From assembly GCF_002158865.1 (NCBI RefSeq), contig NZ_CP021455.1, forward strand, positions 1,096,835 to 1,160,834: DNA of 64,000 bases, written 5' to 3'. This document shows positions 33,135-42,193 of the stretch, one piece after another. A model generated the notes under the pieces. That model was not told where the DNA came from, did not search any database, and saw only the letters and a list, made by a program, of their open reading frames with translations. The stretch comes from Comamonas serinivorans. Its GTDB lineage: Bacteria; Pseudomonadota; Gammaproteobacteria; Burkholderiales; Burkholderiaceae_C. Both the position numbers and the translations under genes were made by a program. How positions within the stretch are numbered: position 1 is the first letter of the stretch; every line of letters begins with the position of its first letter.

Positions 33135-33150
33135 TGCAGACGCCGTGCCA
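33135..33150 (-). promoter_or_regulatory. sigma54-type promoter (minus strand), divergent from rtcR
   Basis: Minus-strand TTGGCACGGCGTCTGCAA: -24 TGGCACG perfect, -12 CTGCA (one mismatch), GG-to-GC spacing 12. Confidence 0.4.
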
Positions 33151-33276
33151 ACTTCCGGCCCAGGCCGTTTCCGCGTGGAGGCCGCTGCGCCAATGCCTTG
33201 ATTTGCAAGCGGTTCGGTGCCCCTGGCCCGCTGACCTGCGTGTCAGCGGGCGATCGTCGGTGTTTGCTAGACTGAG

Positions 33277-33306
33277 GACCCTTGATTCATCCGGCGCGTT
33301 CTTGAT
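33277..33306. promoter_or_regulatory. direct repeats CTTGATTCA x2 just upstream of rtcR ATG (candidate RtcR/UAS site)
   Basis: CTTGATTCA at 33277-85 and 33298-306; related CTTGATTTG at ~33193; TGAATC motif also upstream of the second sigma54 promoter. Confidence 0.3.
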
Positions 33307-33312
33307 TCAGCC

Positions 33313-39710: not shown

Positions 39711-40454
39711 ATGCCTTTACGCATCGACGAAGCCATCACCCAGCTGGATCACGGCTGGCTCAGCCATTTGAAATCGCAGGGTTACGGCGGCGATGCCTTG
39801 CGCCAGGCGATCGACCTGGTGCTGTACGCCCAACAGCAGGCGGCGGCGCGCAACAGCGCCGAGTTCAAGGCCGCCATCGCGCGCGTCAACCACCTGGTGG
39901 GGGCGGGCATCGCGTGTGACAACAACGGCGACTACCTGTACACGGCCGAGTGGCGCGACCCGGCTTGCGCCGGGCTGGGCTTCGCCATCGAATACGCGGC
40001 CGACCCGGCCAGCTGGCGGGCCGAGTTCCGCATGCCCGGCTGCTGGCCGCACACCGTGGACAACCTCGACATCACCGACACCCGCGCTGTGGACCACGAC
40101 TTTGCGCTCTGGCTGGCGCGCGCCAGTGCCCGCCATTTCACGCACCTGATCGAACGCCAGCTGCCCGAAGGCGAAGCACTGCGCGCGCCCTGTACGGCGG
40201 CCGTGCGGGCCGGCACCTGGGCCGAATTCGTGTGCCTGCACCCACTGCAACCCGTGGCCCGCCTGGGGCACGAGCGGCTGGAGCAGGCCGCCTGGTCGGC
40301 CCAATACCCCAGTGCCGCCCAGCGCGAGTTGCAGGCCCGCTTCGATGTGCAGAGCGCCTTGCTGCTGCGCTTGATCGTGGTTCAGCAGGCAGCATGGGCT
40401 TGGCATGAAGAGTATGGCGACAATCGCGATGACGATTCAACGGGAAGGCATTGA
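39711..40454 (+). CDS. hypothetical protein (~247 aa); last ~16 codons and the stop are encoded by an R1 repeat
   Basis: ORF with typical codon usage until ~40405, then runs into repeat GAAGAGTATGGCGAC... Confidence 0.45.
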   Translation: MPLRIDEAITQLDHGWLSHLKSQGYGGDALRQAIDLVLYAQQQAAARNSAEFKAAIARVNHLVGAGIACDNNGDYLYTAEWRDPACAGLGFAIEYAADPASWRAEFRMPGCWPHTVDNLDITDTRAVDHDFALWLARASARHFTHLIERQLPEGEALRAPCTAAVRAGTWAEFVCLHPLQPVARLGHERLEQAAWSAQYPSAAQRELQARFDVQSALLLRLIVVQQAAWAWHEEYGDNRDDDSTGRH

Positions 40455-40460
40455 TACTCC
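40407..40460. repeat. R1 repeat unit (variant inner)
   Basis: GAAGAGTATGGCGACA ATCGCGATGACGATTCAACGGGAAGGCATT GATACTCC. Confidence 0.55.
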
Positions 40461-40987
40461 ATTTGATGTGGCGCTTGCTGAGGGCTGCTTGCCCGACACC
40501 GGAAGGCTGGCGTCGACGCAGGGACATGACGCGTGGCCAGCGGTGCATGGGCTCGCCAGCCGCCCGCACAGCGCCCCCAACCCGCTGACTGGGCGTCCTG
40601 ATGCAGCAGGCCTGGCTCGACCTGCCCGTGCTCTTTCGCCTGCATGCGCAGGCGCGTGGCCAACAGGTGGCGCAGCCCGAGCGGGCCGATGGGGTGTTCG
40701 CCATCCAGGGCACGGCCAGCGCGCAGCCTCACACCGTCCGAGACGGACCGCATCCGGGCCGATTGCCTGTGAAGGCGGGCTTGCAAGGGGCGCTGCATGG
40801 ATCGCTGGCGCGCTGGATGAATCAAGCCAGTTTGGCTTGCGGTGGCTGAGCCGTGGCGAGGCGCAGGCGCCCTCGACGCCAAGTGCTTGATCCGGCAAGG
40901 GTTTGCGCGGCTCGCCTGTTGATTTGGCGGGGCCTGGCACGCCGCGTGCAACGAGGATGGCCACACACAACTCAACTGGGAGCACAC

Positions 40988-42193
40988 ATGCCAACCGACG
41001 ACCAGGTGGAGGCGAAGCCGCGTCACCGTGACCCAGCTCGCACGGCCACCGCCGCAGACACCAAAAGCGTGACCGGCGCAGCGCAGACGGGCCGTGGCGC
41101 AGCCATCGAGATCGATGGCTCGCAGGGCGAGGGCGGCGGGCAGATCCTGCGCACGGCGCTGGCCTTGTCCATGATCACCGGCCAGCCGCTGCACCTGCGC
41201 GCCATCCGCGCCAAGCGGCCCAAGCCCGGGCTCATGCGCCAGCACCTGATGTGCGTGCAGGCGGCCGCGCAGGTCAGCGGGGCCCACATCAGCGGGGCCG
41301 AGCTGGGGGCCACCGAGTTGCGCTTCGCGCCGGGCCCGGTGCGGGCGAGCGCCTACGAATTTGCCATGGCCAGCGCAGGCAGCTGCATGCTGGTGCTGCA
41401 GACCGTGCTGCCGGCGTTGATGCTGGCCGATGCCCCCAGCACGCTGGTGCTGCGGGGCGGCACGCACAACCCCATGGCGCCCAGCTTCCACTTTGTGCGC
41501 GATGCCTTTGCGCCGCTGGTGCAGCGCCTGGGCGCCGGCCTGACGCTGCAGCTGCAGCGGCTGGGCTTTTACCCCGCAGGCGGTGGCGAGGTCACGGCCA
41601 CCATCACGCCTGCGGCCCGCCTGACCCCGTTCGACCTGACCGAGCGTGGCGAGCTGCAGCAGGGCGATGCTCTGTGCCTGACGCCGGGGCTGTCGGGGTC
41701 GATCGCGCGCCGCGAGCTGACGGCGCTGGGCCAGGCCATGGGCTGGGGCGAGGACCGCTTGCGCTTTGGCGAGGCCAGGCAGCACGAGGGGCCGGGCAAT
41801 GCCTTGATCGCCCGCCTGCGCTACGCCCACGTGACCGAGGTGTTCGTCGAGCTTGGGGCCCGCAACCTGTCGTCGGAGCAGGTGGCCGGCAAGCTGGTGC
41901 AGGCCATCCGGGCGTTTCAACGCCGGCCAGGTGCCGCGGTGGGCCCACACTTGGCCGACCAGCTGGTGCTGCTGCAGGCCCTGGCCGTGTGGCAGGCCGG
42001 ACGGACCGGCAGCCAGGCGGATGCGCCCCACGCCGATGTGCCCCAGGCGGATGTGCCGCAAGCACGCTTCTCGTGCAGCGAGGTGACCGAGCACTTGCGC
42101 ACCAACTGCGTGGTGATCGAACGCTTTCTGCCCGTGCGCTGCACGCTGACCCAGGGCCCTGTGTCCCGGGTGACGGTGCGCTGGGCGGGGTGA
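40988..42193 (+). CDS. rtcA: RNA 3'-terminal phosphate cyclase
   Basis: IEIDGSQGEGGGQILRTALALSMITGQPLHLRAIRAKRPKPGL matches RtcA N-terminal signature; ~40-aa N-extension if ATG 40988 (SD GGGAG) is used. Confidence 0.85.
   Translation: MPTDDQVEAKPRHRDPARTATAADTKSVTGAAQTGRGAAIEIDGSQGEGGGQILRTALALSMITGQPLHLRAIRAKRPKPGLMRQHLMCVQAAAQVSGAHISGAELGATELRFAPGPVRASAYEFAMASAGSCMLVLQTVLPALMLADAPSTLVLRGGTHNPMAPSFHFVRDAFAPLVQRLGAGLTLQLQRLGFYPAGGGEVTATITPAARLTPFDLTERGELQQGDALCLTPGLSGSIARRELTALGQAMGWGEDRLRFGEARQHEGPGNALIARLRYAHVTEVFVELGARNLSSEQVAGKLVQAIRAFQRRPGAAVGPHLADQLVLLQALAVWQAGRTGSQADAPHADVPQADVPQARFSCSEVTEHLRTNCVVIERFLPVRCTLTQGPVSRVTVRWAG

What the first reader, a model, noticed from the sequence alone, without database searches (positions are those of the whole stretch)
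33135..42193. RtcR locus without RtcB: sigma54 promoter -> tRNA-like ncRNA -> two unknown proteins -> RtcA
rtcR (CARF + sigma54 activator) normally controls rtcBA, and in some bacteria rsr-yrlBA-rtcBA. Here no RtcB or Ro60/Rsr-like ORF is visible. A near-consensus sigma54 promoter (CTGGCACGGCCGTTGCG, 36025-36041) sits ~15 nt upstream of a 94-nt tRNA-like element. A ~965-aa Ala-rich ORF with no recognisable domain (36423-39320) and a 247-aa unknown ORF follow, then a clear RtcA. A SIMPL-like gene lies between rtcR and the promoter. The gene order and promoter placement suggest an RtcR/RpoN-controlled RNA-processing or RNA-repair module of unusual composition. A structured ncRNA would be the first transcribed element, and the large unknown protein would occupy the position RtcB usually holds.
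Basis: partly seen in the sequence, partly recalled or inferred. Interest (0 to 1): 0.9.

Follow-up and report, generated by a model that had tools for sequence, protein, structure and literature searches.

The report
tRNA-shaped RNAs paired with orphan protein
An RNA-damage-responsive locus in Comamonas serinivorans carries two tRNA-shaped non-coding RNAs followed by a large protein of unknown fold, and this RNA-plus-protein pair turns out to be an undescribed module found in hundreds of bacteria, repeatedly next to RNA-repair genes.

Summary
The window (Comamonas serinivorans) holds rtcR, a near-consensus sigma54 promoter, a tRNA-like RNA, a 965-aa protein ("BIG"), a 247-aa protein and rtcA. 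There is no rtcB or rsr anywhere in the 64 kb.

New here:
- A second tRNA-like RNA lies at 36300-36367.
- rtcA has its own sigma54 promoter (40935).
- A third sigma54 promoter points away from rtcR, towards a T-arm-containing leader and a Band_7 gene.

The main result is that BIG is a large orphan family: about 1,870 cluster representatives in more than 10 phyla, with no Pfam or NCBIfam match and no match by sequence or fold in the PDB. In 76 of 88 loci it is directly preceded, on the same strand, by one to four members of one tRNA-like RNA family. Covariation supports the cloverleaf. Position 1 is always a pyrimidine, and anticodon positions 34-37 are free to vary. Searching from the RNA side found BIG downstream in about 57 of 61 cases.

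The pair sits beside RtcR/RtcB/RtcA/Rsr, Hen1 or HD-Pnk+Rnl in six lineages. BIG therefore accompanies RtcB rather than replacing it.

Most likely this is a tRNA-mimic ribonucleoprotein that acts in tRNA damage and repair. The mechanism is inferred, not shown.

The parts
33135..33150 (-). P3: sigma54-type promoter (TGGCACGGCGTCTGCA) pointing away from rtcR
   Evidence: One mismatch to TGGCAC-N5-TTGCW; sequence read. Function is inferred from its position next to rtcR.
32946..32962 (-). Isolated perfect tRNA T-arm (GCGGGUUCGAUUCCCGC) inside the ~540-nt leader transcribed from P3; possible remnant or relative of a YrlA-type Y RNA
   Evidence: A close relative (L006) has five such T-arm RNAs downstream of rsr. 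Only partly followed up.
31421..32581 (-). Band_7/SPFH protein gene downstream of P3
   Evidence: Pfam Band_7, 91 bits.
33313..34965 (+). rtcR: CARF-type sensor domain plus sigma54 AAA+ activator
   Evidence: NCBIfam NF038308, 788 bits (cut-off 650); Pfam RtcR 254 bits; Sigma54_activat 167 bits.
35074..35802 (+). SIMPL/DUF541 gene between rtcR and P1; absent from orthologous loci, so probably not part of the system
   Evidence: Pfam SIMPL, 43 bits. No counterpart in L006 and no tblastn hit in any locus.
36026..36041 (+). P1: sigma54 promoter TGGCACGGCCGTTGCG; predicted transcription start near 36051-36053
   Evidence: Orthologous promoters are TGGCACGGCCCATGCG (L006) and TGGCACGGCTTGTGCG (L005) at the same distance from the RNA.
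36056..36150 (+). tRL1: tRNA-like RNA. Cloverleaf core 36068-36138, 6-nt anticodon loop CUUGAA, T-loop UGCAAGU. Acceptor stem lengthened by 12 bp of leader-trailer pairing.
   Evidence: Rfam tRNA 52.8 bits; ARAGORN; family model R1 68.9 bits. Fold energy -76.5 kcal/mol, z = -4.6. The stem extension covaries across window, L005 and L006.
36293..36374 (+). tRL2: second tRNA-like RNA. Core 36300-36367, anticodon loop CCAUGCA, shortened T-loop. Acceptor stem lengthened by 7 bp (GCAACGG/CCGUUGC).
   Evidence: Model R1 50.5 bits, E about 1e-10. Orthologues at L005 142-223 and L006 9897-9962 have different but still complementary flanks.
36423..39320 (+). BIG: 965-aa Arg-rich, almost all-alpha-helical protein of an orphan family; Shine-Dalgarno GGGAGAG lies 6 nt upstream
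39711..40454 (+). 247-aa protein of unknown function, restricted to this RtcR-linked clade
40935..40950 (+). P2: sigma54 promoter TGGCACGCCGCGTGCA, 38 nt upstream of the rtcA start codon
   Evidence: Orthologous to L005 4485 (TGGCACGCCGCTTGCA), with the shared downstream motif GGATGGC.
40988..42193 (+). rtcA: RNA 3'-terminal phosphate cyclase
   Evidence: NCBIfam NF003246, 373 bits (cut-off 352); Pfam RTC 249 bits. Start codon chosen from the ATG behind a GGGAG Shine-Dalgarno.

Best explanation
**What it is.** The locus is an RtcR/sigma54 regulon, the known bacterial RNA-damage response. Its main cargo is a previously undescribed two-part module. One part is one or more tRNA-shaped non-coding RNAs ('tRL'). 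The other is a large, basic, all-helical protein ('BIG') encoded immediately downstream on the same transcript.

**What is shown.**
- The RNA and the protein are a conserved gene pair across many phyla.
- The RNA keeps a tRNA cloverleaf but is not a decoding tRNA.
- The pair recurs beside all three main bacterial RNA-repair toolkits: Rtc, Hen1, and HD-Pnk with Rnl ligase.

**What is inferred.**
1. Cleaved tRNAs with 2',3'-cyclic phosphate ends activate RtcR through its CARF domain. This rests on established knowledge from Salmonella (PMC7790460).
2. RtcR then fires three sigma54 promoters in this window. P1 drives tRL1-tRL2-BIG-ORF247. P2 drives rtcA. P3 drives a T-arm-containing leader and a Band_7 gene.
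3. BIG binds the tRNA-shaped RNAs to form a ribonucleoprotein.
4. My preferred mechanism is that the protein-held tRNA mimic acts as a decoy or bait for ribonucleases that cut tRNA anticodon loops. That would explain why only the anticodon positions are free to diversify and why tandem copies always differ there.
5. RtcA here, and RtcB, Hen1 or Rnl elsewhere, would then deal with the broken ends.

In this clade the two RNAs are locked into long leader-trailer helices. This probably changes how they are excised, or keeps them attached to the mRNA.
For: **Gene pair, from the protein side.**
- 69 of 90 loci have an ARAGORN tRNA-like gene directly upstream on the same strand.
- With a family-specific covariance model, 76 of 88 distinct loci have one at 65-91 bits. 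Genuine tRNAs in the same loci score 56 bits or less.

**Gene pair, from the RNA side.**
- A metagenome scan with the actinobacterial T-arm pattern gave 61 true elements. Of these, 54 have a BIG match directly downstream. Three more show only a BIG-like N-terminal sequence in the flank, one of them on a frameshifted or short contig. Three are orphans and one has too little downstream DNA to tell.

**No other conserved partner.**
- No other protein neighbour is conserved across phyla.

**Cloverleaf structure.**
- 99.8% of cells are paired.
- 17 of 21 pairs show compensatory changes.
- 0 of 500 shuffles reach the observed values, and slid controls give about 42% pairing.

**Not a decoding tRNA.**
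- There are 48 different anticodon loops among 98 elements, including 6-nt and 8-nt loops.
- Positions 32, 33 and 38 are fixed while 34-37 are free.
- Position 1 is always a pyrimidine.
- Actinobacterial T-loops read GGCGGAA and the window's reads UGCAAGU.

**Loops change faster than the surrounding sequence.**
- L062 and L080: genes 96.6% identical, RNA backbone identical, 2 loop changes.
- L020 and L037: genes 91.5% identical, 5 of 5 inner loop bases differ.
- All 20 multi-copy loci carry different loops.

**RNA-repair linkage in six lineages.**
- Window, L005 and L006: RtcR and RtcA. Rsr has its own sigma54 promoter in L006.
- L033: rtcR | rsr-rtcB-tRL-tRL-BIG.
- L019: rtcR | ...rtcB-rtcA-tRL-BIG.
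- L016: BIG-rtcB.
- L038: BIG-Hen1, 377 bits.
- L001: HD-Pnk and Rnl ligase, convergent with BIG.

**BIG looks like a nucleic-acid binder.**
- The family is basic (median pI 9.1, 10% Arg) with a conserved FRRRRSLLLLN motif.

**Regulation in this clade.**
- Sigma54 promoters and extended stems are conserved, with covariation, in the three RtcR-linked loci.
Against: - There is no experimental or structural evidence that BIG binds the RNA.
- BIG has no recognisable RNA-binding or catalytic domain and no fold relative, so its activity is unknown.
- Free variation at the anticodon is equally what simple lack of constraint would give. The fast-change examples could reflect differential loss of tandem paralogues rather than selection.
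- In Actinobacteria the start codon follows the RNA's discriminator base by only 1-4 nt. This fits a cis role in mRNA processing or translation at least as well as a trans-acting RNP.
- About 14% of BIG loci have no detectable tRL.
- Most loci have no repair gene nearby.
- No homologue was found in phage contigs, and there is no PADLOC hit, so a conflict or defence role has no direct support.
- rtcB and rsr could lie elsewhere in the 4.5-Mb genome.
Confidence: 0.55

Rival explanations
1. The tRNA-like elements are cis-acting parts of the BIG mRNA, not trans-acting partners. There are two versions. In the first they are 'tRNA punctuation' signals: cleavage by RNase P and RNase Z creates the mature 5' end of the mRNA, which is leaderless in Actinobacteria. 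In the second they are an autoregulatory operator that mimics the real substrate of BIG. BIG itself would then be a tRNA-binding repair or quality-control factor that acts on cellular tRNAs.
For: - In about 45 actinobacterial loci the ATG lies 1-4 nt after the discriminator base (for example G-CUU-AUG), with no room for a Shine-Dalgarno sequence.
- The RNA is always in cis, on the same strand and immediately upstream.
- No terminator separates the RNAs from BIG in the window.
- The RNA-repair neighbourhoods fit a protein that handles damaged tRNAs.
- A precedent from established knowledge: the thrS operator mimics tRNA-Thr.
Against: - Two to four tandem copies, each with a different anticodon loop, are hard to explain for an operator or a cleavage signal.
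- In Proteobacteria the RNA lies 24-283 nt upstream and a normal Shine-Dalgarno is present.
- Fifteen elements encode CCA, which suggests a matured, free RNA product.
- In the window the leader-trailer helix should hinder standard RNase P and RNase Z processing.
Confidence: 0.25
2. tRL1 and tRL2 are the Y RNAs of this lineage, functional equivalents of yrlB/yrlA in the Salmonella rsr-yrlBA-rtcBA operon. They would work with Ro60/Rsr encoded elsewhere, and BIG would be an unrelated passenger.
For: - Two tandem structured RNAs lie under RtcR control, with long terminal stems like Y RNAs.
- rsr, with its own sigma54 promoter, lies near the orthologous locus L006 and inside the L033 operon.
- D. 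radiodurans Yrn1 is described as having an anticodon-like arm with a 6-nt loop (PMC4201824).
Against: - The RNA family follows BIG, not Rsr. It is present in 76 of 88 BIG loci, and nearly all of those have no rsr within 6 kb.
- L006 has five separate YrlA-like RNAs (T-arm, GCGAAUGCC motif, D-arm after the T-arm) directly downstream of rsr.
- tRLs have the normal cloverleaf order, not the permuted T-AS-D order of YrlA.
- No rsr is present in the 64-kb window.
Confidence: 0.08
3. One reading: BIG is a non-homologous replacement for RtcB, that is, a new RNA ligase or end-joining enzyme working with RtcA.
For: - BIG sits between the RtcR-dependent promoter and rtcA, and no rtcB is present in the window.
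- The family has invariant acidic and Arg residues that could form an active site.
Against: - BIG co-occurs with RtcB in the same operon in three lineages. It also co-occurs with Hen1 or an Rnl ligase in others.
- It has no nucleotidyltransferase or RtcB-like motif, domain or fold.
- There is no invariant Lys or His.
- Most family members have no Rtc partner.
Confidence: 0.07
4. The elements are ordinary or recently decayed tRNA genes, for example integration hot spots, and their position next to BIG has no functional meaning.
For: - Rfam's tRNA model matches them above threshold, and ARAGORN assigns amino acids to most.
- Some encode CCA.
Against: - The position and strand are identical in 76 of 88 loci across more than 10 phyla.
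- The elements are more similar to each other than to any tRNA, at 65-91 bits against 56 or less.
- Position 1 is always a pyrimidine. There are 48 different loops, 6-nt loops, non-canonical T-loops and paired discriminators.
- No integrase is consistently nearby.
Confidence: 0.02

Closest known systems
rsr-yrlBA-rtcBA operon of Salmonella (Ro60/Rsr with YrlA/YrlB Y RNAs, under RtcR/sigma54)
   Same: - An RtcR (CARF plus sigma54 activator) regulon.
- Tandem structured non-coding RNAs with tRNA-like features are encoded inside the operon, next to a large helical protein and Rtc enzymes.
- Relatives of this locus also have rsr under a sigma54 promoter (PMC7790460, PMC4201824).
   Different: - tRLs are full, unpermuted cloverleaves with an anticodon arm. 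YrlA is permuted and lacks one.
- The RNA follows BIG across phyla without Rsr.
- No rtcB or rsr is present in this window.
Canonical tRNA (Rfam RF00005), closest to bacterial tRNA-Pro by first base pair and loop consensus
   Same: - Cloverleaf with a 7-bp acceptor stem, 4-bp D stem, 5-bp anticodon stem and 5-bp T stem, supported by covariation.
- U33 is conserved.
- Gram-negative versions keep GG in the D-loop and UUCGA in the T-loop, and some encode CCA.
- C1-G72 and loops of the form CU-NGG-GA recall tRNA-Pro. That last point is my own knowledge, not tested here.
   Different: - Anticodon positions 34-37 are unconstrained, with 48 different loops and loops of 6 and 8 nt.
- Position 1 is always a pyrimidine, and the discriminator varies (G, C or U).
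- Actinobacterial D-loops and T-loops are non-canonical.
- In the window the discriminator and trailer are base-paired, so there is no free 3' end.
tmRNA-SmpB
   Same: A tRNA-like RNA domain physically joined to a coding stretch. In Actinobacteria the tRL is followed within 1-4 nt by an ORF. It also has a dedicated protein partner.
   Different: - The ORF here is an ordinary 750-960-aa gene, not a tag.
- There is no SmpB-like protein, no pseudoknots, and no alanine identity pair G3:U70.
- The only Rfam tmRNA match is a 17-nt T-arm elsewhere in the window.
Bacterial Pnkp/Hen1 and HD-Pnk/Rnl RNA-repair cassettes
   Same: Genomic neighbours of the module in Pirellulales (Hen1) and Massilia (HD-Pnk with Rnl). 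By established knowledge, these systems repair tRNAs cut in the anticodon loop by ribotoxins.
   Different: - BIG shares no domain with these enzymes.
- Those cassettes are not known to include a dedicated non-coding RNA.

Membership tests
RtcR-regulated Rtc RNA-repair operon | RtcR activator with an N-terminal CARF-type RtcR domain and a sigma54-interaction AAA+ domain | tested here: met
   NCBIfam equivalog NF038308, 788 bits against a cut-off of 650; Pfam RtcR and Sigma54_activat.
RtcR-regulated Rtc RNA-repair operon | Sigma54 (-24 GG / -12 GC) promoter in front of the regulated genes | tested here: met
   TGGCAC-N5-TTGC at 36026, a second at 40935 and a third at 33150 (minus strand). The first two are conserved in relatives. 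This is sequence evidence only; activity was not tested.
RtcR-regulated Rtc RNA-repair operon | RtcA RNA 3'-phosphate cyclase in the regulated unit | tested here: met
   NF003246, 373 bits against a cut-off of 352.
RtcR-regulated Rtc RNA-repair operon | RtcB RNA ligase in the regulated unit | tested here: not met
   No tblastn hit better than E = 0.3 anywhere in the 64-kb window. The rest of the genome could not be checked.
Canonical decoding tRNA | Cloverleaf secondary structure | tested here: met
   Rfam tRNA 52.8 bits. Covariation on 74 family members: 99.8% paired, 17 of 21 pairs compensatory.
Canonical decoding tRNA | 7-nt anticodon loop with a conserved, meaningful anticodon and a purine at position 37 | tested here: not met
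   Window tRL1 has the 6-nt loop CUUGAA. Across the family there are 48 loops, and positions 34-37 are unconstrained.
Canonical decoding tRNA | T-loop T54-Psi55-C56, and a free discriminator plus 3' CCA end | tested here: not met
   The window T-loops are UGCAAGU in tRL1 and a 5-nt loop in tRL2. The discriminator and trailer are paired with the leader.
YrlA-type bacterial Y RNA | Permuted tRNA-like module (T arm, then a closed acceptor-like stem-loop, then D arm), with the 5'/3' stem in place of the anticodon arm | tested here: not met
   tRLs align end to end with the normal tRNA order. The definition is taken from PMC4201824.
YrlA-type bacterial Y RNA | Encoded next to rsr (Ro60) and bound by it | tested here: not met
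   No Ro60 homologue in the window. Across 88 loci, rsr is near BIG only in L006 and L033. Binding cannot be tested with these tools.
Ro60/TROVE (for the 965-aa protein) | TROVE HEAT-repeat ring plus vWA domain | tested here: not met
   [not shown]
RtcB ligase (for the 965-aa protein) | RtcB domain (PF01139) and fold | tested here: not met
   No Pfam hit. No structural match. BIG co-occurs with true RtcB in L033, L019 and L016.
Known anti-phage defence systems (PADLOC) | Match to any PADLOC protein model | tested here: not met
   No hit for BIG, ORF247, SIMPL, or the 327-aa and 726-aa proteins of L006.

The most novel reading that the evidence does not exclude
The tRL-BIG pair is a new class of bacterial ribonucleoprotein. 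A dedicated, non-decoding tRNA mimic, whose anticodon loop diversifies under selection, is held by an orphan-fold protein. The complex works as a decoy or sensor for anticodon-loop ribonucleases and feeds into, or cooperates with, the Rtc, Hen1 and Rnl repair pathways. It would be an innate 'tRNA-guarding' system present in hundreds of soil and aquatic bacteria. In Comamonas it is wired directly to the CARF sensor RtcR.
Probability: 0.3. Interest if true: 0.92.

Novelty: categorically new. Interest (0 to 1): 0.85.

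Why it matters
**A new RNA and protein pair.**
- The work defines a new structured RNA family and a new large protein family (about 1,870 representatives at 50% identity). The two are genetically coupled in more than 10 phyla.
- Neither is in Rfam, Pfam or NCBIfam. I found no description in the literature I could search.

**A link to tRNA damage.**
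- The pair repeatedly joins the three known bacterial RNA-repair toolkits, so it belongs with tRNA damage and ribotoxin conflicts.
- In that field, the purpose of tRNA-like RNAs in Rtc/Rsr operons is still an open question.

**Direct experimental handles.**
- There is a cultured organism, a defined RtcR/sigma54 promoter, two small RNAs and one protein to tag.
- There are many natural variants with different 'anticodons'.

**A puzzle in Actinobacteria.**
- A tRNA-shaped RNA is fused within 1-4 nt to a start codon. This is a bacterial analogue of mitochondrial tRNA punctuation, or a tmRNA-like arrangement.

**A practical consequence.**
- Hundreds of genome annotations probably list these elements as ordinary tRNA genes with odd anticodons (including 'SeC' and 'undetermined'). 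That would distort tRNA-repertoire and codon-usage analyses.

Tried and rejected
**Domain and fold searches that found nothing.**
- Pfam, NCBIfam and PADLOC scans of BIG, ORF247, and the 327-aa and 726-aa proteins of relatives gave nothing.
- The afdb50 library was unavailable.

**Searches that added nothing.**
- A second word-indexed protein search, using the alignment, returned the same set and wasted a capped call.
- A scan of IMG/VR found no viral homologue.
- A plasmid search found only 7 actinobacterial megaplasmids or chromids.

**Context analysis.**
- All-against-all clustering of flanking ORFs, looking for a conserved protein partner, found none beyond shared Streptomyces synteny.
- I wondered whether an EF-G paralogue, as in Massilia, recurs. 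The roughly 670-aa upstream genes in Variovorax are AI-2E transporters instead.

**Checks on the RNA.**
- Rfam beyond tRNA returned no Y_RNA or other family for the tRLs.
- My first structure string for pair counting was off by one column and gave a meaningless 29% paired. It was corrected.
- Twelve BIG loci have no detectable tRL at default filters. Six of them were also searched with filters off, and the call for the other six failed on size.

**Literature.**
- Six full-text searches found no description of the pair.
- Burroughs & Aravind 2016 (NAR 44:8525), the most likely place for the protein to have been noticed, is not held in the library.

**Readings rejected.**
- Ordinary tRNA genes, integration hot spot, YrlA, Ro60 homologue, and RtcB replacement. 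The reasons are given under the rival explanations.

Full report
**1. Checking the observation**

The window is from Comamonas serinivorans. The large ORF is 100% identical to CCO03_04750.

- rtcR at 33313-34965: NCBIfam RNA_repair_RtcR, 788 bits against a cut-off of 650; Pfam RtcR plus Sigma54_activat.
- A SIMPL/DUF541 gene at 35074-35802.
- The sequence TGGCACGGCCGTTGCG at 36026-36041.
- A tRNA-like element at 36068-36138: Rfam tRNA 52.8 bits. ARAGORN calls it a tRNA of undefined type with a 6-nt anticodon loop.
- An ORF of 965 aa at 36423-39320 and one of 247 aa at 39711-40454, with no Pfam, NCBIfam or PADLOC match.
- rtcA at 40988-42193.

The acceptor stem of the tRNA-like element continues for 12 more base pairs between leader and trailer (GGGCCCAGG.../...CCUGGGCCC). 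The fold is far more stable than shuffled controls (-76.5 kcal/mol, z = -4.6).

No RtcB or Ro60 homologue exists anywhere in the 64 kb. The gene after rtcA is purU.

**2.

*A second tRNA-like element.* A family-specific covariance model (below) finds one at 36300-36367 (50.5 bits, E about 1e-10). It too is embedded in a leader-trailer helix (GCAACGG/CCGUUGC).

*Conservation in close relatives.* Both RNAs are conserved in the two closest metagenomic relatives: L005 at 45-116 and 142-223, and L006 at 9769-9839 and 9897-9962. The sequences of the stem extensions differ among the three loci but stay complementary. This supports the extensions as a selected feature.

*More sigma54 promoters.*
- The promoter in front of the first RNA is also conserved (TGGCACGGCCCATGCG in L006 and TGGCACGGCTTGTGCG in L005).
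- rtcA has its own sigma54 promoter (TGGCACGCCGCGTGCA, 40935-40950), 38 nt before an ATG with a GGGAG Shine-Dalgarno. It is orthologous to the L005 promoter, which precedes a 732-aa gene of unknown function followed by rtcA. That gene is missing from C. serinivorans.
- A third sigma54-type promoter (33150-33135, minus strand) points away from rtcR. It leads into a leader of about 540 nt that contains a perfect tRNA T-arm (GCGGGUUCGAUUCCCGC). A Band_7/SPFH gene follows.

*SIMPL.* The gene has no counterpart in the orthologous loci.

**3. The large protein ('BIG') is a widespread orphan family**

Sequence searches:
- A word-indexed search found 39 homologues at 30-66% identity in Proteobacteria, Actinobacteria, Planctomycetes and Myxococcota.
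- An exhaustive profile search found 1,869 representatives at 50% identity, 1,030 of them below E = 1e-30. Nearly all are 720-840 aa.
- A scan of one genome per species confirmed relatives in at least 530 genomes. Besides the phyla above, these include Verrucomicrobia, Acidobacteria, Chloroflexota, Cyanobacteria, Armatimonadota and Rhodothermales.

Conserved features:
- The alignment shows strongly conserved motifs: GSRTP...PAWVT.EV..GGFATG, PEEGALLVVAWLL, FRRRRSLLLLN, AADIFMG, NG.VIEQ.QILTTHNLA and AYAWRQM.FFLS.
- The proteins are basic and Arg-rich (median pI 9.1).

Structure:
- AlphaFold gives a confident, almost entirely helical model (pLDDT 84, pTM 0.82).

BIG is therefore not a Ro60/TROVE protein, not RtcB, and not a recognisable nucleotidyltransferase, HEPN or ligase.

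The 247-aa protein is confined to the RtcR-linked clade (9 homologues). It also has no fold match.

**4. BIG is almost always preceded by a tRNA-like RNA of one family**

*The association from the protein side.*
- Every homologue whose context I fetched first had a tRNA or tRNA-like gene ending 1-160 nt before the start codon on the same strand.
- Across 90 loci, ARAGORN found such a gene in 69.

*The RNAs form one family.*
- They are clearly homologous to each other across phyla (alignment A2, 74 sequences).
- The cloverleaf is supported by covariation. 99.8% of cells are paired, 17 of 21 pairs have compensatory changes and no shuffle reaches the observed values. Slid controls give about 42% pairing.

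*Census with a covariance model.*
- A model built from the alignment (R1) scores family members at 65-91 bits. Genuine tRNAs in the same loci score 56 bits or less.
- With it, 76 of 88 distinct loci have at least one element directly upstream. Nineteen have two and one has four.
- Twelve loci have none detectable at default filters. Six of these were also searched with filters off and still had none. The filters-off call for the other six failed on size.

*The association from the RNA side.*
- A metagenome scan with the actinobacterial T-arm pattern returned 75 contigs. Sixty-one carry a true element.
- BIG matches directly downstream in 54 of them. Three more have only a BIG-like N-terminal sequence in the flank, one of them frameshifted or on a short contig. 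Three are orphans and one contig has too little downstream DNA to judge.

*No other partner.* All-against-all comparison of flanking ORFs found no other gene conserved across phyla. The conserved unit is therefore the RNA plus BIG.

**5. The RNAs are not decoding tRNAs**

- Position 1 is always a pyrimidine (C1-G72 in 59 elements, U1-A72 in 21).
- Loop positions 32, 33 and 38 are fixed (C, U, A). Positions 34-37 vary freely, giving 48 different loops in 98 elements. Nine loops have 6 nt and three have 8 nt.
- ARAGORN accordingly 'assigns' Pro, Ser, Arg, Gly, Trp, Gln, Glu, Lys, Cys, Phe, Thr, Leu, Met, Ala, Tyr, SeC or nothing.
- Actinobacterial members have non-canonical D-loops and T-loops (T-loop GGCGGAA). 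The window's T-loops are UGCAAGU and a 5-nt loop.
- Fifteen elements encode CCA after the discriminator.
- In about 45 actinobacterial loci the discriminator is followed by 1-3 bases and then the ATG of BIG (for example G-CUU-AUG), leaving no room for a Shine-Dalgarno.

The loop changes faster than the surrounding sequence in some close pairs:
- L062 and L080: genes 96.6% identical, RNA backbone identical, two loop differences.
- L020 and L037: genes 91.5% identical, all five inner loop bases differ.

All 20 multi-copy loci carry different loops. This is suggestive of diversifying selection. Lack of constraint, or differential loss of tandem paralogues, could give the same picture.

**6. Functional context: RNA repair**

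Most loci have no informative neighbours. In six independent lineages, however, the pair sits with RNA-repair genes:
- Window, L005 and L006 (Comamonadaceae): RtcR and RtcA. In L006, rsr has its own sigma54 promoter.
- L033 (Pirellulaceae): rtcR divergent from rsr-rtcB-tRL-tRL-BIG.
- L019 (Chloracidobacterium): rtcR divergent from DUF6847-293aa-rtcB(intein)-rtcA-tRL-BIG.
- L016 (Planctomycetaceae): BIG-rtcB.
- L038 (Pirellulales): BIG immediately followed by Hen1 (Hen1_L, 377 bits).
- L001 (Massilia): an HD-Pnk kinase/phosphoesterase and an Rnl-type RNA ligase convergent with BIG. An EF-G paralogue and two EF-G domain-IV proteins lie upstream.

Any one of these genes has a chance of well under 1% per locus of lying within 6 kb. 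This is my estimate from gene frequencies, not a computed statistic. The recurrence, in operon orientation, is therefore a real functional link. Rtc, Pnkp/Hen1 and Rnl systems are all associated with repair of RNAs, and above all of tRNAs cut in the anticodon loop. RtcR is known to be activated by tRNA fragments with cyclic phosphate ends (PMC7790460).

**7. Relation to Y RNAs**

The Salmonella operon rsr-yrlBA-rtcBA also has two tandem non-coding RNAs with tRNA-like features. Three points separate the tRLs from YrlA:
- YrlA is a permuted tRNA mimic (T arm, closed acceptor-like stem-loop, D arm) whose terminal stem replaces the anticodon arm (PMC4201824). The tRLs have the normal order and an anticodon arm.
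- L006 carries five separate RNAs directly downstream of rsr. Each has a T-arm and a GCGAAUGCC motif, and two have a D-arm after the T-arm. These look like true YrlA-type RNAs.
- The T-arm in the window's P3 leader may be a relative or remnant of these.

The tRLs are thus a different RNA class, one that follows BIG and not Rsr.

**8. How it most likely works**

Shown:
- The gene pair.
- The structure of the RNA.
- Its non-decoder character.
- Its linkage to repair genes.
- The three sigma54 promoters next to rtcR, by sequence only.

Inferred:
1. RNA damage activates RtcR.
2. RtcR and sigma54 transcribe tRL1-tRL2-BIG-ORF247 from P1, rtcA from P2, and the T-arm leader with Band_7 from P3.
3. BIG binds the tRNA-shaped RNAs.
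4. The complex acts on the tRNA-damage problem.

I favour a protein-held tRNA decoy or bait for anticodon-loop ribonucleases. This would explain the free and copy-specific anticodon loops. [quoted passage not shown]

The main rival is a cis role: mRNA 5'-end formation, leaderless translation, or an autoregulatory substrate mimic for a tRNA-binding BIG. The ATG abutting the RNA in Actinobacteria supports that reading.

In the window's clade the leader-trailer helices (15-19 bp in total) would hinder standard RNase P and RNase Z processing. They may instead be RNase III sites, or may keep the RNAs on the mRNA. Nothing here tells these apart.

**9. Novelty and limits**

- The regulatory shell (RtcR, sigma54, RtcA) is a known kind.
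- The RNA family, the protein family and their pairing are in no database I could query: Rfam 15, Pfam, NCBIfam, PADLOC and the PDB.
- The pairing is in none of the papers found by six full-text searches.
- I could not read Burroughs & Aravind 2016. That survey may have noticed the protein among RNA-repair neighbours.
- I could not check the rest of the C. serinivorans genome for rtcB or rsr.
- There is no expression or binding evidence of any kind.

Noticed in passing
window 33135-33150 (-), 32946-32962 (-), 31421-32581 (-): A third sigma54-type promoter points away from rtcR. It leads into a leader of about 540 nt that holds an isolated perfect tRNA T-arm (GCGGGUUCGAUUCCCGC), followed by a Band_7/SPFH gene and a 206-aa ORF with no family match. 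This may be a YrlA-like RNA or its remnant, and a further arm of the RtcR regulon.
   Followed up: partly
L006 3300-4350 (-): In the closest relative that has rsr, five RNAs about 200 nt apart lie downstream of rsr (which has a sigma54 promoter at 5974, minus strand). Each has a T-arm and a GCGAAUGCC motif, and two have a D-arm after the T-arm. This looks like an array of YrlA-type Y RNAs. Rfam has no matching family.
   Followed up: partly
L005 4543-6741; L006 14028-16208; L081 8457-10484 (-): A 726-732-aa protein with no Pfam or PADLOC match sits behind its own sigma54 promoter between the 252/327-aa gene and rtcA in the relatives. It is deleted in C. serinivorans. A 30%-identical homologue lies convergent to BIG in a Pyrinomonadaceae genome, so it may be another accessory of the module.
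   Followed up: partly
About 45 actinobacterial loci, e.g. L018 5899-5975, L029 5899-5975: The start codon of BIG follows the discriminator base of the tRNA-like RNA by only 1-3 nt (G-CUU-AUG, G-CU-AUG, G-CC-AUG). tRNA-type 3' processing would therefore leave an essentially leaderless mRNA, a bacterial parallel to mitochondrial tRNA punctuation.
   Followed up: partly
L019 2717-4669: The RtcB of Chloracidobacterium sp. UBA7656 contains an intein (Pfam Intein_splicing, 72 bits).
   Followed up: no
L001 6223-9792: In Massilia the module is preceded by an EF-G paralogue, a 176-aa ORF and two small proteins that consist only of EF-G domain IV, the tRNA-anticodon-arm mimic. This hints at a ribosome connection. 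The arrangement is not seen in Variovorax, where the upstream gene is an AI-2E transporter.
   Followed up: partly
L045 3310-8361: In a Rhodothermales MAG the BIG reading frame is open for 1,683 codons. This gives an N-terminal extension of about 900 aa with no Pfam match. It could be a fusion, or an artefact of a long open frame in GC-rich DNA.
   Followed up: no
window 27729-27850 (+) and 5794-5915 (-): An SAH riboswitch (48 bits) lies upstream of the B12-dependent methionine synthase gene. There is also a Bcj11 'Burkholderia RNA 11' match (69 bits) elsewhere in the window.
   Followed up: no
L152 23-93; L142 7282-7353 and L150 1985-2056: A few orphan tRNA-like elements of the family have no BIG downstream. 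One type has a broken acceptor 3' strand. These are probably decaying copies.
   Followed up: partly
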